Shown here: positions 1-39,203 of the stretch, piece after piece | Layout: the number at the start of each line of letters is the position of its first letter | Numbering within the stretch: position 1 is the first letter of the stretch | Source: a virus | IMG/VR virus record: IMGVR_UViG_3300032200_000007 | Direction: 5' to 3' (one strand) | DNA: 39,203 bases | Made by a program: the position numbers and the translations under genes | The notes under the pieces: model-generated | Databases searched by the model: none | What the model saw: only the letters and a program-made list of their open reading frames with translations | What the model was told of the DNA's origin: nothing

Positions 1-141
1 ATCCAAGAAAAAAAATCCTGCAGTCCGGGCCGGGAGGAGTTTACCCGGTTAACGACGGCGATCCGCGTAACGATGTTCCGGAAATTGACAATGAAGATTT
101 TGTCGAAAACGAAGAAGATTTTTTAGCCGGCTACGGCTATG
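1..141. repeat. Terminal overlap, copy A (identical to 39063..39203)
   Basis: Read directly: 1..141 matches 39063..39203 at 141/141 nt. This indicates a circular or circularly permuted molecule. Confidence 0.97.
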
Positions 142-9153: not shown

Positions 9154-9210
9154 ACACGTTATAATCAATTTTGCCGGAGAGCCTTATTATAGTCCGGCGC
9201 AAAAGGAAGG
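9153..9210 (+). repeat. Intergenic repeat element R1
   Basis: Sequence: aacacgtt-ataatc-aattttgcc-ggagagcc-ttattatag-tccggcgcaaaaggaagg. 9167..9211 equals 9644..9688 with one mismatch. Confidence 0.85.
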
Positions 9211-9217
9211 TCATCTC

Positions 9218-9631: not shown

Positions 9632-9687
9632 AACGTTGCATAAAATTTTGCCGGAGAGCCTTATTATAGTCCGGCGCAAAAGAAAGG
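9632..9687 (+). repeat. Intergenic repeat element R2
   Basis: Near-identical to R1. The ORF track shows the same antisense peptide FLLRRTIIRLSGKI from both copies. Confidence 0.85.
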
Positions 9688-9693
9688 TTTGCG

Positions 9694-16475: not shown

Positions 16476-16505
16476 CAGCCGGGCGGCAACCCGGCTGGTT
16501 TTTTT
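16476..16505 (+). terminator. Rho-independent terminator at the convergence point of the two arms
   Basis: cagccggg-cggcaa-cccggctg followed by gttttttt. The reverse orientation is followed by tttgtt, so it may be weakly bidirectional. Confidence 0.75.
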
Positions 16506-17089
16506 CATTGTAAAGTATAAATCACTGTTTGGTTGCAATTACTTCCCTTAGATGAATCAGCGCCCCATACTTGAGTTGTTCCTTCGGAAAAAATCAATTG
16601 AGAAGTATATGTTGATGTAAAATAGGCTACAGCATTAGTTGTGACCGTTCCGCTCGAATACCACCTTGTCGGGTTTATTATTGCATTCAATATAATTCCC
16701 CCTGATGCTCCAGAGGCGACAGTTGGTTGAATTGCAGATGGAAGTCCGTTTAATGACATACACGGAATACCATCAGAATTAGCAAGGAATTCAGGAACAA
16801 ACAAAGTTACAGTATTGTAAACTTTTTCATATTTTACCGTTATTGATGTATCTCCCGAACTGGTTCCTGAAACAGTTGCCGTAAACGATCCGGTCAAATA
16901 TCCTGTATCGGCTATGATATGGCTTGCCAAGGTAACTCCAGAAACCTTCAGGCTCCCGCACCCAAGGTCTGAACTGCTTCCGCTGTTTATCGATCCGATA
17001 ATATCAGTGAAATTCTGGTTCACCTCGTCGGCGTCGATATAATTACCGGCACCGTTTACAAAAGTATAAGTTACTGATGGATCAGCCAT
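16505..17089 (-). CDS. Tail fibre-like protein (194 aa)
   Basis: The N-terminus TYTFVNGAGNYIDADEVNQNFTDI resembles phage fibre N-termini. The rest is Ser/Thr/Gly-rich. It is the last gene in a T7-like structural order. Confidence 0.55.
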   Translation of the reverse strand: MADPSVTYTFVNGAGNYIDADEVNQNFTDIIGSINSGSSSDLGCGSLKVSGVTLASHIIADTGYLTGSFTATVSGTSSGDTSITVKYEKVYNTVTLFVPEFLANSDGIPCMSLNGLPSAIQPTVASGASGGIILNAIINPTRWYSSGTVTTNAVAYFTSTYTSQLIFSEGTTQVWGADSSKGSNCNQTVIYTLQ

Positions 17090-21551: not shown

Positions 21552-23366
21552 TTAACGAGCCTCCCGTAAAGAATAACGAATTGTCATATTATATACCTTG
21601 AAATATTCTCCTACTCCATTGGTGCGGAATCTCACTTGTATAGACTTCGCAACTATATGAATCGGTATCTTATACATTTTCTGCGTTCTCGACGCTCCCC
21701 ATACATCGATCCCCCATTCGGCGTCTCCCCACACCGCGCCACCCGGATCAAGGTCGAGCGTGGTAGTCCCATCGACAGAGGTTGCGAAATCGCTTTTCCA
21801 TTCAACCGTAAGATACCAGTCGCCGCTTGTTTCTGCGGTTACGTAGATATACCGGAAAACCTTTGTATTCTCTTTGTGTTCATCCCGGCCGTGCAGGTGC
21901 ATGGTTTTGAAATAGCTGTCAATTGCGCTGCCGTTATCGTTATGGGAATAATTCAACTTGTAAACATAACCCGAATAATCGGCACCGTAAAGATTGCCCT
22001 CATGTTCTGCAAAATCTTTTATCGCAAGCCCTGTAAACTTCGACCACGCGCCGCGTCCTATTTCTTTTCTTCCGCGCACGAAATCATACTGGTAAATCCG
22101 GTTATTCGTCGTTCCTGACGCGGTAACAGAAATCCACACCTTGTTCTTATACGTTACCGCAACAGCAAGCGAAAGATAAGCGGTAATAAGGTCGTCGATA
22201 TCGGGCCCGATAGGATAAGATATTGCATCGGAATCAACCTTTCCGATATTGACATTTGAAAGATCGTAAATCCCGTTCCTGTTGAGCATTATGATAAACG
22301 TGGCGAACCTGCACATTACTTTTGGGCTGATCGATCCATAGGCAACGTCGAGACGCTCAAGAGACCAGTTATCGGGATCGGAATCGGGCATGTAGAGCAC
22401 GTATACCGCGCCGACCCCGTATCCGTCCTCTTTCGCTATGATAAGGCCGTTGTTGTAAACAGCCAGCCCCCGGATAGTCATTCCGTCGCCGTCTCCGACG
22501 CGGATATAATTATCCGAATCCCATTCTTCGAGGTCGTTTATTTCCGAATAATAAAGGTTTGTTGAAAGCGCTTCCGCGCCGAACATATAGCCGTCGTGAT
22601 ACAGGAAAATATTGATATTCGGCGGCCTGCTGTCGTCAATTGTCGTGTCCCTGGCTTCGGTAAGCGTAGAATGCACGTCCTGTACATACGATGTTCCTGC
22701 GGTTACGGTTTCGAGCAGGTAATCGTCGCGGTAAACAGACAGATAATTTACACCGTAAGAAGAAGGTATTGCGTCGAAATAAACGTTCACGGGAGAACAG
22801 GTATTCGTTATCGTGAACGTTTTCACCGCACATGCCGGAGATTCTATATTCGTTGAATTTATAAACGATACACGGTAAGCGTAATCAACTACGCCGGCCG
22901 AACCGGCAAGCGTAGAGTCCGCCGATGCGATACTGGTAATAAATGCCGTGGTGAGCGTCGGGACTCCCCACCTGGTGAAATCGGCTCCATTGTATTTATA
23001 TTCTGCCGTTCCGTTTCCGAAAAACACATAGTTCTGCGCGTTTTCAGCGTGAACGCGCACCCCGGCAGTAAACAATCCGGTAGACCCGGTTACTTCTCCG
23101 AAAGACGTCCCTGACAGTTTGAAAATCGATCCGTATGCAGCCAGCAGTTCAGAACCTGAATTCGATCGATAGGTATGAAGCAGATCGACGGCTCCGGCAA
23201 CAGGAGCGGTATTTATTTTCGTTGTTCCAAGGCGGGTCCCGACAGCTCCCACATCGTCGAATTCAACATTTTGGCAATCCGGCGATTCGTTAGGCTCTCC
23301 CTGCAAAGACGATATCTTTGTGTTCAATCCGCCATCGAATTTATTTATCTTGAATGAATATTTCAT
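21552..23366 (-). CDS. Tail tubular B / nozzle-like protein (604 aa)
   Basis: The N-terminus FKINKFDGGLNTK...ESPDCQNVEFDDVGAVGTRLG resembles podovirus tail tubular proteins. Size and position match T7 gp12. Confidence 0.45.
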   Translation of the reverse strand: MKYSFKINKFDGGLNTKISSLQGEPNESPDCQNVEFDDVGAVGTRLGTTKINTAPVAGAVDLLHTYRSNSGSELLAAYGSIFKLSGTSFGEVTGSTGLFTAGVRVHAENAQNYVFFGNGTAEYKYNGADFTRWGVPTLTTAFITSIASADSTLAGSAGVVDYAYRVSFINSTNIESPACAVKTFTITNTCSPVNVYFDAIPSSYGVNYLSVYRDDYLLETVTAGTSYVQDVHSTLTEARDTTIDDSRPPNINIFLYHDGYMFGAEALSTNLYYSEINDLEEWDSDNYIRVGDGDGMTIRGLAVYNNGLIIAKEDGYGVGAVYVLYMPDSDPDNWSLERLDVAYGSISPKVMCRFATFIIMLNRNGIYDLSNVNIGKVDSDAISYPIGPDIDDLITAYLSLAVAVTYKNKVWISVTASGTTNNRIYQYDFVRGRKEIGRGAWSKFTGLAIKDFAEHEGNLYGADYSGYVYKLNYSHNDNGSAIDSYFKTMHLHGRDEHKENTKVFRYIYVTAETSGDWYLTVEWKSDFATSVDGTTTLDLDPGGAVWGDAEWGIDVWGASRTQKMYKIPIHIVAKSIQVRFRTNGVGEYFKVYNMTIRYSLREAR

Positions 23367-24013
23367 TCGTTTACAATCGCCTCGTTTATTATCACCGACG
23401 GATAAACGTCATGATGCTTCTTTTGCAGACGCTCATTATTGATATTTTCAATATTTTCATCCCATTGTTCTTTGTACGCTGCGGCTTCGGAGCGCAATTC
23501 CTGATCCTTCATGAACATTCTGTAAAGCGCATAATCCGCTATGTATTCGGCATATTCGGAAGGAATTGAAAAGGCCGTCGATGCCGTCGTAATAGTCGCC
23601 GGAACCGCGTTGAAATACACGCTTATCGTTTTCGCAGCGTCGGGAGTGGGTGAGAACCCAAGTTCGTCTCCATACCGGTAATAATGCGTCGGGTTCCCGT
23701 AAAGGGTGACCCCTCCGTAAGCCTTACCCTCAATGTCATCCAGCCCGTTTATATCCATGCCGCTCAACCGGTATGAATCATAGGTCAATCTCGTGATCGT
23801 TCCGACAGTAGAACACAGATTCGACGCGATAGAATACGTTTTCGTGTTCGTCGTAGACGTGAAAGAACTGTTTTTCTCGACCATGCCGAGACGCTGCGCA
23901 AGGATTTTCTCGCCGGTTGAAATCAGGGAATAAATCTCATCTTCTCCCCAAAATTCGGTTGAATCCTCTGCGCACTGGTTTCTTATTATAGTGTAAAGTT
24001 CCGAAGGGGTCAT
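23363..24013 (-). CDS. Tail tubular A / adaptor-like protein (216 aa)
   Basis: Its position immediately upstream of the nozzle-like gene and its size are comparable to T7 gp11. Confidence 0.4.
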   Translation of the reverse strand: MTPSELYTIIRNQCAEDSTEFWGEDEIYSLISTGEKILAQRLGMVEKNSSFTSTTNTKTYSIASNLCSTVGTITRLTYDSYRLSGMDINGLDDIEGKAYGGVTLYGNPTHYYRYGDELGFSPTPDAAKTISVYFNAVPATITTASTAFSIPSEYAEYIADYALYRMFMKDQELRSEAAAYKEQWDENIENINNERLQKKHHDVYPSVIINEAIVNE

Positions 24014-24986: not shown

Positions 24987-25253
24987 TCAATTCCCGTTTC
25001 TTTTTCTGTTTAAAATTCTGGTTTCTGTCTTAAGTTCCGCTATCGCTATTTCAAGCTGATGAATAAGGCAGCCGAGTTTTTCATTTGTATCGGCCTGCTC
25101 TTTTCGCAAAGCCTTTATTTCAAGGTCGCATTTTTCAACTTTTTCAACGGTATCTTTTATCACCTGCGCCTGCTGACCGTTTGAATAATTTAAGCCGAGA
25201 AGCAGAACTATTATTGTAACTGCCGACGGTATCCATGTGGAAAACTTTTTCAT
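24987..25253 (-). CDS. N-terminally anchored coiled-coil protein (i-spanin-like)
   Basis: Membrane segment WIPSAVTIIVLLLGL, then a charged heptad-like region with two Cys. Confidence 0.35.
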   Translation of the reverse strand: MKKFSTWIPSAVTIIVLLLGLNYSNGQQAQVIKDTVEKVEKCDLEIKALRKEQADTNEKLGCLIHQLEIAIAELKTETRILNRKRNGN

Positions 25254-25498
25254 TCTTCAACCTCATGTTCCGGGATGATTATGATTTTTTTATACGCTGT
25301 ATCTGTTGCACGTATATTTTTCCCTTTAAATTTTATTTGCATTGTCCTACGGATCACACCCGTATCGTTCATATAATCACACCGATATTTTACAAAAAAT
25401 AATGAATCGCCTTCAAGTTCGTATTTTACAATCTTCCAATGGTTGTTTTGTGAGAACGCCGATAATTCAATGATAAACATGATGATGAGATATTTCAT
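25250..25498 (-). CDS. Small protein with a hydrophobic N-terminus (82 aa)
   Basis: ORF track; MKYLIIMFIIELSAFSQ; no lipobox Cys. Confidence 0.45.
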   Translation of the reverse strand: MKYLIIMFIIELSAFSQNNHWKIVKYELEGDSLFFVKYRCDYMNDTGVIRRTMQIKFKGKNIRATDTAYKKIIIIPEHEVEE

Positions 25499-25508
25499 TT
25501 TATTTCTC

Positions 25509-28500
25509 CTAAAATCTATAACTTATGTCAAAAGGTTTTATTCCTCCGCTTCCCGCTGCCAGATCAGCGCTTCCTTCAGTAAACAATTGCAACTCACCAG
25601 CCAGCGGCTGAATCAACCCAATAACGTTTGTACTATTATTATATATCTGCACTGGAATTAACGCTTTATCACCTGTATACCGTGCGGATTTTATCGATGG
25701 ACATTTTACATACGCTCCGCCACCGCTCAACGTCCCAAGAATCTGATTGCCAGTTATTCTTATAGTGCTATCGGAATATTTAACGAGAAAATAAGCGATC
25801 GACCGCGCCCTGTATGTTGCTCCGTCATAAAGCGAACAATACGCACTGAAAGACGAATCCGAAAGCACCATCAATCTTTTACAGACAAGCGTGTCTTTCC
25901 TGATTTCAACGGAAGACGTATCGGTAGAAACTCCTGTTGCATCCCTTGCGTCAGCAGTATCGGTATAGCTGAATCTCAACACCCCGGTTACATTTCTCGC
26001 TGCGTATACTGTCCGCGATCCGGAATACAAGTCGAATACCAATCTTGAATAGGTATCATCATCAGGACGTAATTGAAAATCATCTCCTGAAAATTTTATA
26101 TTCCATGCCCCGGTAGGGCATGTTAAATATTTTTTTGCTGTCAACCCGAAATCGGGATTATAATAGAAAAACCCGTAATCCGTAAATGGCGTATCGGCTT
26201 TCATTAAATCAGTAAGCGTGTCGCCTGATGTTATCGGGATATTTCCATCCGTAACGGTTCCTTGTATCGGAGTCGGAAGATTATATTCTGACCACATTTT
26301 CTTACAAATTACAATAGTTGATTTTGTGGTATCTGTAGGACAAATCGTATCAACAACCGCAAGTATTCGATTTCTTGCCGTTGATTCAGACGTGGAAAGG
26401 ATATAGTTATATGTTTGAAAATCATCACTTTGAGTGTGCCAAAAATAAACTTTTCCGCGACATTTAAACATGTAAACAGTATCAACTATTCCGTTTGTCC
26501 ATCCGCCAGGATTATAAAACATCCCATCGTTGCTATATATATATCCCTGTATTGCCGCCGCTATCGGAAAATCTGACCAGTAACTATTTCCATGTATTTG
26601 AAGTTCAAACATTGTGTTTGACGTGGTATCAATACTTGTTTTAATTAATATTCCATTTGCATAATGATAAACAGGAACATTAAAATATGTTTTCGCAAAG
26701 CAAGCTCCGCTGTCAGAACTTATATTTTCACGAATATCAAAATAATCTCCGGTATCGGTTACAGAGCTACTCTTCAGTGTAGAATCGGTATCAACCATCG
26801 GCAGGTTGCCGATATTAAGATTCCAGAGTTTCAGCTTTCCGTTTTTCAGATGATAATTACCGGTTCCTACCGTTCTGCTATTAAATATCATGTTGCTGCC
26901 ATCGTAATAAATCCCGGCGTCCTGCCCTTCTCCGAAAACAATTTTACTCGTATCGCTGTCTAAATTCAACCCGCCTTCAAACTGGCTTTGCGCGGCATGT
27001 TCCGAATAAATACACCAATCCGTCGTAACCGTCGCAGAACCGACCGGTGCATTTATCACAATATCCCAATTCTTAGCTATCGTTCCTGTCCCTTGACGAT
27101 ATGGATTCATTTCAATTCCTGCGACTCCGCCAGAAACATTTCCAACTATCGATCCGTTTGTTCCATAATTGAACCTTAACCCGTATAGTGCACCGACAGT
27201 TCCGGAAGTTAAAAGATATGCACGCATCCAAAACCCATGATACGATCCGGCATCAACAAGGTCGGCGCTGGCAAGATTGGCATAGCAGTATGCATTCAAA
27301 GCATATCCGCCGTAATTACCGTTTGCGGTTACATCTGCATCAGTATAAAAATATCCGTTGTATCTATTGGCCAGATTAGTCGGATTATAATATCCGTAAA
27401 ATTTTATGTTTGATACCGGAGCAACTCCGTATGACAAATTGGAATACGAAGAATTGTATCTCAATTCGCTGTTGCTAAGCGCATGAGAAGAACTGAAATA
27501 AGGAACATAATTAGCCGTTCCGTTTATCCGCGCATTGCATGTGTCGTCAACGTCTTTTGCATGATCGGCGATTACGGCGCTATCGGCCTTGCCATGCAGA
27601 GGAAGCCTGTTGTTCAGCGTATCCCTGATAATATCCAATGAATCCGATACTGCAGCCGTCGATATTGCGCCTATTCCAGTGCGAAAAGAAGATGCGGAAA
27701 TTCCTCCTACAAGTCCATCGCCGCGTATTATTGGAACCGTATCGGTCATTGATATCATAGAGATGTCTTTAATAATAGTGGAATCTTCTATTTTTAACCC
27801 TCCATGCTTTATCCAAACAGGATACCATTTGTCACGGTATGGATAAGAATAGAAATCTTTAAAAAGCGAATCGTTTAATGTCATTTGCCCGGTACTGTCA
27901 ATTATCGCAATATGGTCAATAAATGTTTCAGGAGAAGGGTCCGAAACAGAACGAATGACAAATTTATTTTTACCTGTATATCCACCTGCCTGCATCTTTA
28001 AGCTTGCAATGGCAAAATGACCTTGATACCAACCGTAAAATGTTTGAAGATTTTCAAGCATCAATCTCGCGTATGAATTCGCGGAACTAGAATTATTCAA
28101 TATCAAAAATAATGGATTTGAAACATTGGAAGTTCCATAAGTCAACAATGGACCATGCCCGTAATAAGTATTTCCATCGTAATGCAATAACGAATCGTCG
28201 AGCAACGACGATGATTTTGCAACAGCAAAATAATTTGTTGCTACTCCATGAAGAAGACTTAAACCTATTGTTGCCGTATCCGATCTTTGCGATTTCAGTG
28301 AAGCCCTTACGCTGTCAGGAGTGTTAAGTGCTGTATCAGCGGTATCAGAATAAACGGCATGAGTTACCGAGTCGGGAATTATCGTATCGACAGGGCAGGC
28401 TTTCATCAGGTTGCTGGCGCTGTCGAACACTGCGAAATAATGAGGAGAAGTGGCAAGCGGCTTCGTTATTATATATAAAGAATCATTTAACTGAAGCCGT

Positions 28501-28586
28501 CCGTTGTTTCCCTGTATGCTGTCGGTTTCAAGAAATTCAGCGCTGCATACCGATACAATGAAAAGAAAAACGGCAATTCGTCGCAT
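25509..28586 (-). CDS. Large beta-rich protein (1,025 aa) with a Sec-type signal peptide; fibre/adhesin-like
   Basis: Met11 of the track ORF; its ATG overlaps the upstream TGA, and AGGGGGG lies upstream. N-terminus MRRIAVFLFIVSVCSA/EF. N/S/T/G/Y-rich. C-terminus ...KPFDISYRF. Confidence 0.6.
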   Translation of the reverse strand: MRRIAVFLFIVSVCSAEFLETDSIQGNNGRLQLNDSLYIITKPLATSPHYFAVFDSASNLMKACPVDTIIPDSVTHAVYSDTADTALNTPDSVRASLKSQRSDTATIGLSLLHGVATNYFAVAKSSSLLDDSLLHYDGNTYYGHGPLLTYGTSNVSNPLFLILNNSSSANSYARLMLENLQTFYGWYQGHFAIASLKMQAGGYTGKNKFVIRSVSDPSPETFIDHIAIIDSTGQMTLNDSLFKDFYSYPYRDKWYPVWIKHGGLKIEDSTIIKDISMISMTDTVPIIRGDGLVGGISASSFRTGIGAISTAAVSDSLDIIRDTLNNRLPLHGKADSAVIADHAKDVDDTCNARINGTANYVPYFSSSHALSNSELRYNSSYSNLSYGVAPVSNIKFYGYYNPTNLANRYNGYFYTDADVTANGNYGGYALNAYCYANLASADLVDAGSYHGFWMRAYLLTSGTVGALYGLRFNYGTNGSIVGNVSGGVAGIEMNPYRQGTGTIAKNWDIVINAPVGSATVTTDWCIYSEHAAQSQFEGGLNLDSDTSKIVFGEGQDAGIYYDGSNMIFNSRTVGTGNYHLKNGKLKLWNLNIGNLPMVDTDSTLKSSSVTDTGDYFDIRENISSDSGACFAKTYFNVPVYHYANGILIKTSIDTTSNTMFELQIHGNSYWSDFPIAAAIQGYIYSNDGMFYNPGGWTNGIVDTVYMFKCRGKVYFWHTQSDDFQTYNYILSTSESTARNRILAVVDTICPTDTTKSTIVICKKMWSEYNLPTPIQGTVTDGNIPITSGDTLTDLMKADTPFTDYGFFYYNPDFGLTAKKYLTCPTGAWNIKFSGDDFQLRPDDDTYSRLVFDLYSGSRTVYAARNVTGVLRFSYTDTADARDATGVSTDTSSVEIRKDTLVCKRLMVLSDSSFSAYCSLYDGATYRARSIAYFLVKYSDSTIRITGNQILGTLSGGGAYVKCPSIKSARYTGDKALIPVQIYNNSTNVIGLIQPLAGELQLFTEGSADLAAGSGGIKPFDISYRF

Positions 28587-28789
28587 CAGTACCCCCCTTT
28601 GATGCACGTATGCCATGCAGAACCTTCATATACCTGAACCTTGAGGCGGCTGTCCTCCCATATCAGCCGTATCTTCGGATCGGTTCCGAATTCGATGTAA
28701 TTCTCACCGAGAACCACATCAATCGTGCGTAGATACCGGTTATCGTTGTATTTTAAGTGTGACTGTAAAGTCTCTTGCCTGAAAGGCAT
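28586..28789 (-). CDS. Hypothetical protein (67 aa)
   Basis: ORF track; GGAAGGAG RBS. Confidence 0.5.
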   Translation of the reverse strand: MPFRQETLQSHLKYNDNRYLRTIDVVLGENYIEFGTDPKIRLIWEDSRLKVQVYEGSAWHTCIKGGY

Positions 28790-39050: not shown

Positions 39051-39203
39051 TGTTTTTTTTAAATCCAAGAAAAAAAATCCTGCAGTCCGGGCCGGGAGGA
39101 GTTTACCCGGTTAACGACGGCGATCCGCGTAACGATGTTCCGGAAATTGACAATGAAGATTTTGTCGAAAACGAAGAAGATTTTTTAGCCGGCTACGGCT
39201 ATG
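39050..39203 (+). CDS. Small acidic protein whose ORF crosses the circular junction (56 aa once 39203 is joined to 142; stop at 156..158)
   Basis: ATG 39050 overlaps the TGA of the upstream gene (TGATG). The frame stays open through the repeat. Product: MFFLNPRKKILQSGPGGVYPVNDGDPRNDVPEIDNEDFVENEEDFLAGYGYERIEK. Confidence 0.45.
   Translation, partial: MFFLNPRKKILQSGPGGVYPVNDGDPRNDVPEIDNEDFVENEEDFLAGYGY
39063..39203. repeat. Terminal overlap, copy B (identical to 1..141)
   Basis: Read directly; the same 141 nt as the window start. Confidence 0.97.

What the first reader, a model, noticed from the sequence alone, without database searches (positions are those of the whole stretch)
25509..28586. 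1,025-aa protein in the tail region with a classical Sec signal peptide and an OMP-like C-terminal beta-signal
The likely start is Met11, whose ATG overlaps the upstream TGA. It gives MRRIAVFLFIVSVCSA/EF: a basic n-region, a hydrophobic core and a small-x-small cleavage site.

The C-terminus ends ...KPFDISYRF. Hydrophobic or aromatic residues sit at positions -1, -3, -5 and -7 with a terminal Phe. This is the pattern recognised by the outer-membrane insertion machinery.

Virion fibres assemble in the cytoplasm and normally lack signal peptides. This large N/S/T/G/Y-rich protein may instead be exported to the host envelope, for example as a moron, a superinfection-exclusion factor or an adhesin.

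Together with the two small upstream/downstream genes it forms an AT-rich island. By hand count, 26401..26460 has 18/60 G+C.
Basis: partly seen in the sequence, partly recalled or inferred. Interest (0 to 1): 0.6.

Follow-up and report, generated by a model that had tools for sequence, protein, structure and literature searches.

The report
Phage tail fibre with export signal
A 1,025-residue phage protein built like a host-recognition tail fibre starts with a real, family-conserved bacterial secretion signal, which is unexpected for a tailed phage; its supposed outer-membrane insertion signal is only the last strand of a viral fibre-head knob.

Summary
The gene lies on the minus strand at 25509-28586 of a complete 39,062-bp short-tailed phage genome.

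**Signal peptide: real.** MRRIAVFLFIVSVCSA/EF cannot be avoided by a later start. 16 of 17 relatives of the N-terminal domain have such a leader. In four relatives the 16-residue leaders are 22% identical, against 58% for the next 45 residues.

**Outer-membrane beta-signal: pattern present, reading fails.** Residues 910-1025 model confidently (pLDDT about 97) as a viral fibre-head knob. The best matches are Zamilon Zav_19 (Z 12.1), reovirus sigma1, adenovirus fibre heads and lactococcal phage receptor-binding heads. Six of 14 relatives do not end in an aromatic residue. No barrel, autotransporter or type IX secretion tail was found.

**Fibre-like body and position.** The middle domains are shared with many signal-less proteins with fibre-like N-termini. 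The gene is tightly packed in the late operon, where phage SU10 keeps its long-tail-fibre and lysis genes. It has no promoter or terminator of its own.

**Verdict.** It is a tail-fibre-type receptor-binding protein made as a Sec pre-protein. Whether it joins the particle late (about 0.45) or acts on the infected cell's envelope (about 0.3) is unresolved. This scan has noted signal peptides on phage fibres in other genomes; I found none in print.

The parts
25509..28586 (-). Gene for the 1,025-residue fibre-like protein (Met11 start; stop codon at 25509-25511). An alternative upstream ATG lies at 28616.
   Evidence: The exact protein is on record as P0002.
28592..28600 (-). Shine-Dalgarno-like AAAGGGGGG, 5 nt before the Met11 ATG. 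It also encodes K-G-G of the upstream gene.
28539..28586 (-). Signal peptide, residues 1-16: MRR (n-region), IAVFLFIVSV (h-region), CSA (c-region). Predicted cleavage is before EFLETDS.
   Evidence: The AlphaFold model puts residues 2-14 in a helix.
27627..28538 (-). N-terminal domain, residues 17-320. It is conserved in relatives that almost all carry a leader. It includes the DSVTHAVYSDTADTALNTPDSVRA motif and a beta-rich core.
   Evidence: The model is of low confidence.
26727..27554 (-). Middle fibre domain, residues about 345-620, with the widely repeated motif at 535-590 (GEGQDAGIYYDGSNMIFNSR...). About 100 of the 150 best relatives share it, most of them without a leader.
26280..26672 (-). 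Beta-sandwich domain, residues 639-769, like the C-terminal lectin-like domains of tailspikes.
   Evidence: pLDDT about 90. WceF Z 9.2, phage Fri1 gp49 Z 8.5, T4 gp9 Z 7.6.
25860..26279 (-). Linker or shaft, residues 770-909, not confidently modelled.
   Evidence: pLDDT below 50
25512..25859 (-). C-terminal fibre-head (knob) domain, residues 910-1025. Its last strand FDISYRF (25512-25532) is the supposed beta-signal.
   Evidence: pLDDT about 97. Zav_19 Z 12.1, NMV_189 Z about 9, reovirus sigma1 Z about 8, phage and adenovirus fibre heads Z 6-7. Family alignment.
28586..28789 (-). Upstream 67-codon gene whose TGA overlaps the fibre gene's ATG. It has no leader. Its last 32 residues are conserved in a 134-residue protein of locus L011.
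25250..25498 (-). Downstream 82-codon gene with a hydrophobic, signal-like N-terminus (MKYLIIMFIIELSAFS/Q).
   Evidence: It does not pass my strict rule because of an E in the core.
24987..25253 (-). 88-codon gene: N-terminal membrane anchor followed by a coiled coil with two Cys. It sits where SU10 has its holin and lysis genes.
23363..24013 (-). SU10-type head-to-tail adaptor, without a leader (context).
21552..23366 (-). Nozzle-like tail protein, without a leader (context).
16505..17089 (-). 194-residue protein without a leader, last gene of the late operon (the T7 gp17 position). It is a second candidate receptor-binding protein.

Best explanation
The gene encodes this phage's long tail-fibre-type receptor-binding protein, made as a Sec pre-protein.

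**Architecture (shown).** The protein has six parts:
- a 16-residue signal peptide;
- a conserved N-terminal domain;
- a fibre domain shared with many signal-less proteins with fibre-like N-termini;
- a tailspike-type beta-sandwich;
- a poorly modelled linker (residues 770-909);
- a terminal fibre-head knob that should bind the host receptor.

**Mechanism (inferred).**
1. The leader takes the unfolded chain through SecYEG.
2. Signal peptidase I cuts after CSA, leaving EFLETDS... as the new N-terminus.
3. The fibre folds, and presumably trimerises, outside the cytoplasm.
4. It meets the particles built in the cytoplasm only when the lysis proteins encoded next to it open the inner membrane, or after lysis. 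It then docks on the SU10-type adaptor and tail.

The C-terminal ...ISYRF is simply the last beta-strand of the knob.

**Odds.**
- Fibre-type receptor-binding protein with a functional export signal, not an outer-membrane protein: about 0.75.
- The further step that it ends up on the virion: about 0.45. That is the confidence given here.
For: **Leader.**
- It is unavoidable: no later start codon exists.
- It is conserved as a feature in 16 of 17 N-domain relatives and 10 of 15 C-domain relatives.
- In four relatives the leaders are all 16 residues long. They are 22% identical, against 58% for the next 45 residues, and keep small residues at -3 and -1.

**Fibre nature.**
- The 150 best relatives of 282 (E up to 0.001) show mosaic sharing of four modules.
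- The knob fold has pLDDT about 97 and Z 12.1 to Zav_19. All other knob matches are viral fibre heads or phage receptor-binding heads, also in a search of 48,161 chains that does not lean on Foldseek.
- Zav_19 and NMV_189 are described as fibre-head folds in bioRxiv 10.1101/2023.01.23.525297 (title and abstract).
- The 639-769 domain resembles tailspike C-terminal domains.

**Position.**
- The gene lies in the late operon between the capsid and adaptor/nozzle genes. Stop and start codons overlap upstream, 10 nt separate it from the next gene, and it has no own promoter or terminator.
- SU10 belongs to the same Pfam adaptor and portal families. It has the same layout: decoration gene, terminator, long-fibre genes, holin and lysis genes, nozzle.

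**Relatives.**
- In L006, L008 and L011, leader-bearing fibre genes sit in or at the end of the tail / ejection-protein block.
- In the part of L011 that I read, the only receptor-binding-like proteins I saw both carry leaders.
Against: - No trained signal-peptide predictor and no experiment were available.
- The nozzle, the adaptor and every other late protein of this phage except the 88-residue membrane protein lack a leader by my rule. The tail is therefore built in the cytoplasm, and an exported fibre would be in the wrong compartment until lysis.
- The phage has a second, signal-less candidate receptor-binding protein at the canonical last position of the operon. The particle may not need this protein.
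- Late attachment of periplasmic fibres is described for no tailed phage that I found.
- The N-domain model is poor (pLDDT 60.7), so docking to the adaptor is untested.
- There is no sequence similarity to the SU10 fibre gp12.
- Similarity to the SU10 adaptor is seen only at profile level, not pairwise.
Confidence: 0.45

Rival explanations
1. The protein is an exported fibre that never joins the virion. It is secreted across the inner membrane and acts on the infected cell's envelope. It could mask the phage receptor, which would give superinfection exclusion and protect progeny from cell debris. Or it could act as an adhesin that ties infected cells to fresh hosts. This would be analogous to the signal-peptide-bearing, phage-fibre-like MAT adhesins that Bdellovibrio displays on its surface.
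For: - The signal peptide is conserved.
- The nozzle and adaptor lack leaders, so virions and this protein are made in different compartments.
- A separate signal-less receptor-binding candidate exists at 16505-17089.
- The gene lies in a lower-GC block with two other membrane or exported small proteins.
- Bdellovibrio MAT fibres have the same plan: a signal peptide, a conserved N-domain and variable tips (PMC10769870).
- Weakly related leader-bearing proteins sit among housekeeping-like genes in a Zixibacteria genome bin (L009/L012) and in metagenome contig L010.
Against: - The gene has no own promoter or terminator and is translationally coupled within the late structural operon.
- Its position equals that of the SU10 long-fibre genes.
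- A Sec leader alone reaches only the periplasm of a diderm host. No outer-membrane translocation device was detected: no autotransporter, type IX secretion tail or lipobox.
- No integrase was found among the large ORFs scanned, so lysogenic conversion is not evident.
- In L011 the only receptor-binding-like proteins I saw carry leaders, which is hard to square with all of them being non-virion.
Confidence: 0.3
2. The protein is a conventional cytoplasmic virion fibre. The hydrophobic N-terminus is not used for export during infection. It would be a buried helix at the trimer or adaptor interface, or Sec would be bypassed late in infection.
For: - Everything that marks the protein as a fibre.
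- In SU10 the fibre N-termini are the parts that dock on the adaptor (PMC9509320).
- Residues 2-14 model as a helix.
Against: - A structural docking helix should be conserved in sequence. Here the leader is the least conserved part, at 22% against 58% identity.
- The leader keeps the three classic regions and small residues at -3 and -1 in diverse relatives.
- Leaders are also found on minimal 169-244-residue knob proteins with quite different N-terminal regions.
Confidence: 0.15
3. One reading: an outer-membrane beta-barrel or autotransporter-type protein inserted by the BAM machinery through its C-terminal ...ISYRF signal.
For: - The terminal Phe with hydrophobic or aromatic residues at -3, -5 and -7.
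- The signal peptide.
Against: - The last 115 residues model with pLDDT about 97 as a compact ten-strand knob. Its matches are viral fibre heads (Z 12.1 down to about 6). No barrel or trimeric-autotransporter anchor appears among the 50 best of 48,161 chains.
- There is no Pfam or NCBIfam hit to any autotransporter, YadA-anchor or outer-membrane-protein family.
- Six of 14 relatives do not end in an aromatic residue.
Confidence: 0.02
4. A -1 shift on the G6 run (AAAGGGGGG) fuses the upstream 67-codon gene to this frame. The hydrophobic segment would then be internal, not a leader.
For: - The run of six G lies just before the TGA/ATG overlap.
- The fibre frame is open upstream to 28616.
Against: - The heptamer is not a canonical X XXY YYZ slippery site in the upstream gene's frame (read).
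- The G run simply encodes the conserved ...CIKGGY end. L011 has the same protein end in front of an unrelated downstream gene.
- Relatives carry their leaders at true N-termini behind unrelated upstream genes.
Confidence: 0.03

Closest known systems
Long tail fibres of Escherichia phage SU10 (Kuravirus), gp12 and gp13 (PMC9509320)
   Same: - A short-tailed phage whose adaptor and portal fall in the same Pfam families.
- The fibre genes lie between the capsid/decoration genes (with a terminator) and the nozzle gene. Small holin and lysis genes follow directly.
- A long modular fibre with a distal receptor-binding end.
   Different: - There is no detectable sequence similarity to gp12.
- In SU10 the adaptor gene precedes the fibre genes; here it follows them.
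- I checked no N-terminus of the SU10 fibres; the paper places the fibre N-termini on the adaptor and mentions no leader.
Viral fibre-head receptor-binding domains: Zamilon Zav_19, Noumeavirus NMV_189, reovirus sigma1 head, adenovirus fibre heads, and lactococcal phage p2, TP901-1 and bIL170 receptor-binding heads
   Same: Residues 910-1025 share the fold: Z 12.1 (114 residues, 2.9 A) to Zav_19, about 9 to NMV_189, about 8 to sigma1, and 6-7 to the others. As in those proteins, the domain is at the extreme C-terminus of a fibre.
   Different: - Sequence identity is only 7-15%.
- Trimer formation and the ligand were not tested.
- I checked none of these proteins for a leader.
Bdellovibrio bacteriovorus MAT (mosaic adhesive trimer) fibres (PMC10769870)
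   Same: A signal peptide followed directly by a conserved beta-rich N-domain, a long phage-like fibre of about 1,000 residues, and swappable C-terminal tips.
   Different: - MATs are chromosomal genes of a predator and are displayed on its own surface. This gene lies in a phage late operon.
- Homology of the N-domains was not tested.
- No sequence match to any solved chain, MAT tips included if deposited.
Signal peptides on Porphyromonas phage proteins (Matrishin et al. 2023, PMC10367356)
   Same: Phage-encoded proteins with Sec signal peptides, read as adaptation to the host's secretion system.
   Different: That paper names capsid proteins, spanins and unknown proteins, not tail fibres. Most follow the Bacteroidetes Q rule, whereas this leader is predicted to expose Glu.
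Envelope proteins encoded beside tail genes (lambda Lom and Bor, T5 Llp, Cor); from my own knowledge
   Same: Exported phage proteins encoded next to receptor-binding genes. Some block the receptor.
   Different: Those are small barrels or lipoproteins, often with their own transcription signals. This is a 1,025-residue fibre without its own promoter or terminator.

Membership tests
Sec / signal peptidase I signal peptide | Positively charged n-region | tested here: met
   MRR, net +2. K or R is present in the relatives.
Sec / signal peptidase I signal peptide | Uncharged hydrophobic core of 7-15 residues | tested here: met
   IAVFLFIVSV. By my rule, 16 of 17 N-domain relatives have one.
Sec / signal peptidase I signal peptide | Small residues at -3 and -1 before the cleavage site | tested here: met
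   C-S-A/E here. C-F-G/E, A-F-S/E, S-F-G/T, C-F-A/Y and C-S-A/I in relatives.
Sec / signal peptidase I signal peptide | Call by a trained predictor (SignalP or similar) | not tested
   No such tool was on hand. Only my own heuristic was used.
Sec / signal peptidase I signal peptide | Export and cleavage shown by experiment | not testable with these tools
   This needs reporter fusions or N-terminal mass spectrometry.
Lipoprotein (signal peptidase II) signal | Lipobox [LVI][ASTVI][GAS]C with a conserved Cys | tested here: not met
   V-S-V-C has Val at -1. The Cys is replaced by Ser or Ala in relatives P0003, P0012 and P0024.
Outer-membrane beta-barrel protein (BAM substrate) | C-terminal beta-signal ending in an aromatic residue, conserved in the family | tested here: not met
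   It is present in this protein (ISYRF), but 6 of 14 relatives end in E, K, K, P, E or N.
Outer-membrane beta-barrel protein (BAM substrate) | Transmembrane barrel of 8 or more amphipathic strands | tested here: not met
   The C-terminal 115 residues model as a soluble fibre-head knob with pLDDT about 97. The best matches are viral fibre heads.
Autotransporter / trimeric autotransporter adhesin (type V secretion) | C-terminal translocator or YadA-type anchor domain | tested here: not met
   No Pfam or NCBIfam hit. The modelled fold is a ten-strand knob, not a helix plus four long strands.
Type IX secretion cargo | C-terminal sorting domain (TIGR04183 or TIGR04131 type) | tested here: not met
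   No NCBIfam or Pfam hit at E up to 0.1 or 0.01. The fold is a fibre head, not a seven-strand Ig-like sandwich.
Phage tail fibre / receptor-binding protein | Distal receptor-binding head or lectin-like domains of the kinds seen in solved fibres and spikes | tested here: met
Phage tail fibre / receptor-binding protein | Mosaic sharing of modules with other fibre-like proteins | tested here: met
   The 150 best relatives share one to four of the modules. In L008 a signal-less fibre shares the middle domain.
Phage tail fibre / receptor-binding protein | Gene in the late or tail module | tested here: met
Phage tail fibre / receptor-binding protein | N-terminal domain that docks on the tail (related to a known anchor) | tested here: inconclusive
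   The N-half model is poor (pLDDT 60.7). It gave only weak matches to fibre-like viral proteins.
Phage tail fibre / receptor-binding protein | Presence in purified virions | not testable with these tools
   The phage is uncultured.
Moron (independently transcribed accessory gene) | Own promoter and terminator flanking the gene | tested here: not met
   No flanking sites above the shuffle background. The only strong terminator is at 30174-30153, after the decoration gene.
Moron (independently transcribed accessory gene) | Base composition different from the neighbours | tested here: met
   G+C 0.39-0.42 against 0.46-0.57 in most flanking late genes
Bdellovibrio MAT fibres | Signal peptide, conserved N-domain and variable tips | tested here: met
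   The architecture is met.
Bdellovibrio MAT fibres | Homology of the N-domain to the MAT N-domain | not tested
   No MAT N-domain sequence or structure was on hand. No solved chain matched by sequence.

The most novel reading that the evidence does not exclude
A tailed phage makes its long tail fibre as a Sec pre-protein. The fibre is exported, trimmed by signal peptidase I and folded in the periplasm. It is added to cytoplasm-built particles only when the adjacent lysis proteins breach the inner membrane. That would be a two-compartment assembly route not described for any tailed phage.
Probability: 0.3. Interest if true: 0.85.

Novelty: new variant of a known kind. Interest (0 to 1): 0.55.

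Why it matters
**Textbook conflict.** Tailed-phage assembly is described as wholly cytoplasmic. A receptor-binding fibre with a conserved, fast-evolving, cleavable-looking secretion signal does not fit that picture.

**Two possible meanings.**
- Fibres mature outside the cytoplasm, perhaps to use oxidative folding or to keep them away from receptor precursors, and join the particle late.
- Phages deploy copies of fibre architecture on the infected cell's envelope as receptor masks or adhesins.

Either would change how host-range proteins are annotated. It would also matter for expressing fibres of uncultured phages: with or without the leader, and in the cytoplasm or the periplasm.

**Practical caution.** A C-terminal ...Y-x-F with alternating hydrophobic residues is not enough to call an outer-membrane protein.

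Tried and rejected
**Searches that found nothing for this protein.**
- Pfam, PHROGs and NCBIfam gave no family.
- tblastn against 50,697 phage records gave no match.
- phmmer against solved chains gave only a spurious E 0.73 hit.
- IMG/VR scans with this protein, P0004 and P0003 found only distant middle-domain relatives. The first N-domain alignment was too diverse to scan with.

**Comparisons that showed no relation.**
- The 194-residue last gene against the C-domain profile: no relation.
- SU10 gp11 and gp12 against the window's adaptor and fibre by BLASTP: nothing significant.

**Ideas dropped.**
- The upstream 67-residue protein as a detached fibre N-terminus. Only the 11-mer LKYNDNRYLRT is shared with P0015 and P0094, and phmmer does not see it. 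In L011 the partner downstream of its homologue looks like an ejection protein, not a fibre.
- A -1 frameshift on the G6 run (see the rival explanations).
- An outer-membrane lipoprotein spanin near the 88-codon gene: no lipobox ORF was found.
- A conserved small partner gene beside leader-bearing fibres in the related loci: none was found.
- Cysteine pairing in the knob. The AYCSLYD Cys is kept in 13 of 14 relatives, but the last-strand Cys in only 6 of 14.

**Weak results.**
- The ESM Atlas gave only scores of 0.83-0.85, to viral clusters.
- The N-half model was too poor for a fold assignment.

- No whole genome is held for this window.


Full report
**What is there.** The window is a complete phage genome. 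Bases 1-141 repeat exactly at 39063-39203, which gives 39,062 unique bases. The finding's ORF is on the minus strand: 25509..28616 from the first ATG, or 25509..28586 from Met11. The Met11 ATG shares its A with the TGA of an upstream 67-codon gene, and AAAGGGGGG lies 5 nt before it. The next gene downstream starts 10 nt after the stop codon.

No promoter-like or terminator-like site flanks the gene above the shuffle background. The only strong terminator of the region lies at 30174-30153, after the decoration gene.

The late operon on the minus strand reads as follows:
- terminase;
- portal (P22 and SU10 families);
- scaffold;
- major capsid protein;
- decoration protein;
- a Maf/MptE-like enzyme;
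- two small genes;
- this gene;
- four small genes;
- SU10-type adaptor;
- nozzle-like protein;
- ejection-type proteins;
- a final 194-residue protein.

**The signal peptide is real.** The leader MRRIAVFLFIVSVCSA/EF has a basic n-region, a ten-residue uncharged core and C-S-A before the predicted cut. No ATG, GTG or TTG lies between Met11 and the region that already aligns with relatives from residue 30. The hydrophobic segment therefore belongs to the protein whichever start is used.

An exhaustive HMMER search found 282 relatives at E up to 0.001, of which the 150 best were examined. I tallied leaders with a simple rule of my own:

| Module shared with the query | Relatives with a leader |
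|---|---|
| N-terminal domain (about 17-320) | 16 of 17 |
| C-terminal domain (900-1025) | 10 of 15 |
| Middle fibre domain | 20 of 102 |
| Domain 620-780 | 6 of 33 |

The same rule of the 22 late genes of this phage and 14 of 179 mechanical ORFs.

Four relatives share the mature start EFLETDS. Their leaders are all exactly 16 residues long but only 22% identical, while the next 45 residues are 58% identical. Small residues are kept at -3 and -1. That is how cleavable signal peptides evolve, and not how a structural docking helix would. A lipoprotein signal is unlikely: Val stands at -1 and the Cys is not conserved. I had no trained predictor and no experiment.

**The 'beta-signal' is the last strand of a fibre head.** The C-terminus does read ...KPFDISYRF. 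I modelled residues 600-1025 with a 43-sequence alignment. Two domains came out confident: residues 639-769 (pLDDT about 90) and 910-1025 (pLDDT about 97). The linker between them was poor.

Matches of the C-terminal domain:

| Solved structure | Z |
|---|---|
| Zamilon virophage Zav_19 (114 residues, 2.9 A) | 12.1 |
| Noumeavirus NMV_189 | about 9 |
| Reovirus sigma1 head | about 8 |
| Avian reovirus sigmaC | about 7 |
| Adenovirus fibre heads | about 7 |
| Lactococcal phage receptor-binding heads | 6-7 |
| Listeria phage PSA receptor-binding protein | 6.9 |

A search of 48,161 chains that does not lean on Foldseek gave the same list. It added a Pseudomonas phage tail-needle knob and a tailspike C-terminus. 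No membrane barrel appeared among the 50 best. Zav_19 and NMV_189 are described in print as fibre-head folds (bioRxiv 10.1101/2023.01.23.525297, title and abstract).

The strand x-Y-R-F is conserved in the domain family. Even so, 6 of 14 relatives carry extra residues after it or end in a non-aromatic residue. No autotransporter, YadA-anchor, outer-membrane-protein or type IX sorting domain was detected.

The 639-769 domain resembles the C-terminal lectin-like sandwiches of tailspikes: WceF Z 9.2, phage Fri1 gp49 Z 8.5, T4 gp9 Z 7.6.

**It is built, and placed, like a tail fibre.** The relatives share the four modules in mosaic fashion. Most proteins that share the middle domains have N-termini without a leader. 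In locus L008 one such signal-less 530-residue protein lies two genes before a leader-bearing 390-residue relative.

Phage SU10 shares the Pfam adaptor and portal families. Its gene order is decoration gene, terminator, adaptor, long-fibre proximal and distal genes, holin, lysis protein, short fibre, nozzle. The window has the same layout, except that its adaptor gene follows the fibre block. This gene stands where the long-fibre genes are. The two small genes after it stand where the SU10 holin and lysis genes are. One has a signal-like N-terminus, and the other a membrane anchor plus a coiled coil.

So the lower-GC block (G+C 0.39-0.42; 18/60 at 26401-26460) is not clearly foreign cargo, although it is compositionally distinct. 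There is no pairwise sequence similarity to the SU10 gp11 or gp12. The argument rests on position and family, not on orthology.

**Related loci.** Relatives of the N-domain are rare: six metagenome loci and two genome loci.
- **L006.** A leader-bearing 356-residue relative follows a homologue of this phage's 490-residue ejection-type protein, with other small leader-bearing genes around it.
- **L011.** This 28-kb contig is binned with a Candidatus Latescibacterota genome and is the only lead to the host. It carries a leader-plus-knob protein of 330 residues, a homologue of the upstream 67-residue gene, and a 343-residue leader-bearing relative at 48% identity.
- **Minimal forms.** Some family members are only a leader, a short linker and the knob, at 169-244 residues.
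- **Bacterial-looking contexts.** Weaker relatives share only the motif at residues 70-141. They lie among housekeeping-like genes in a Zixibacteria genome bin (L009/L012) and in metagenome contig L010.

**What I think it does.** Shown: the protein is a fibre-type receptor-binding protein with a conserved Sec-type leader and a fibre-head tip. It is not an outer-membrane barrel. I give about 0.75 to 'fibre with a functional export signal'. The destination is inferred.
- *For the virion:* the operon structure, the SU10-like position, and relatives in which the only receptor-binding-like proteins I saw carry leaders.
- *Against the virion:* the nozzle, the adaptor and all other late proteins except one small membrane protein lack leaders. 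A signal-less 194-residue protein also stands at the canonical last position. Its nearest Atlas clusters are viral, with weak leads to baseplate receptor-binding families.

My odds are:

| Reading | Odds |
|---|---|
| Virion fibre that joins after the membrane is breached | 0.45 |
| Envelope-acting, non-virion fibre (receptor mask or adhesin, like Bdellovibrio MAT fibres; PMC10769870) | 0.30 |
| Leader not used for export | 0.15 |
| Frameshift fusion or barrel | remainder |

**Novelty.** Three literature searches found no tailed-phage fibre reported with a signal peptide. The nearest paper is Matrishin et al. 2023, which names capsid proteins, spanins and unknown proteins of Porphyromonas phages. 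Notes of this scan report the same feature on fibres, and sometimes nozzles, of other uncultured short-tailed phages. Later checks priced the bold reading at 6-30%. These are leads, not evidence. The present case differs in that only the fibre, and not the nozzle, carries the leader.

**Limits.** There was no trained signal-peptide predictor, no coordinates for Cys distances, and only a poor N-domain model. I therefore could not fetch the 131,964-nt contig that carries the identical protein.

Noticed in passing
window 16505-17089 (-): The last gene of the late operon encodes a 194-residue protein without a leader. It has a fibre-like N-terminal motif (...YIDADEVNQNFTDI...) and a beta-rich C-terminus. 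Its nearest Atlas clusters are viral (0.93), with weak leads to Caudo_bapla_RBP and BppU. It is a second candidate receptor-binding protein.
   Followed up: partly
window 28586-28789 (-) and L011 3999-4403: The last 32 residues of the 67-residue upstream protein (DP..RLIWED.RLK.QVY..GAWHTCIKGGY) recur at the end of a 134-residue protein in L011. There too, the last base of the gene is the first base of an unrelated downstream gene. The function is unknown.
   Followed up: partly
window 24987-25498 (-): Two small genes follow the fibre gene. One has a signal-like N-terminus. The other has an N-terminal membrane anchor, a coiled coil and two Cys, which is spanin- or holin-like. For both, a possible cleavage site would expose Gln at +1. 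No lipoprotein partner ORF was found nearby.
   Followed up: partly
window 1-141 and 39063-39203: An exact 141-nt terminal direct repeat shows that the record is a complete genome of 39,062 bp.
   Followed up: yes
window 9156-9211 and 9633-9688: Two copies of a 56-nt sequence, 89% identical and 477 nt apart, lie in the early region. They may be a repeated regulatory element.
   Followed up: no
P0040, P0068, P0076, P0143; L005 9016-9687; L011 3002-3994: Minimal family members consist of a signal peptide, a short linker and the same fibre-head knob (169-330 residues). Some are encoded inside phage tail modules.
   Followed up: partly
L010 1447-3051; L009/L012: A neighbour gene in L010 ends ...GGIYFFRLNADQLVETRKVILLK, which to my eye looks like a type IX secretion sorting tail. 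L009/L012 is a Zixibacteria genome bin with a leader-bearing protein that repeats the DSV..A.YAD.A motif among housekeeping-like genes. Together with L011 (Latescibacterota) this hints at hosts in the FCB group.
   Followed up: no
P0002 and P0154: The identical fibre protein and the identical 194-residue protein are recorded on a contig of 131,964 nt. That is far longer than this genome and not a whole multiple of it, so it may be an integrated copy or a mis-join.
   Followed up: no
window 21552-23366 (-): The C-terminal half of the nozzle-like protein matches a PHROG annotated as a lysis amidase (phrog_5107, E 3.7e-21). This may be a virion-borne wall hydrolase or a mislabelled family. No endolysin was identified among the ORFs I scanned.
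   Followed up: no
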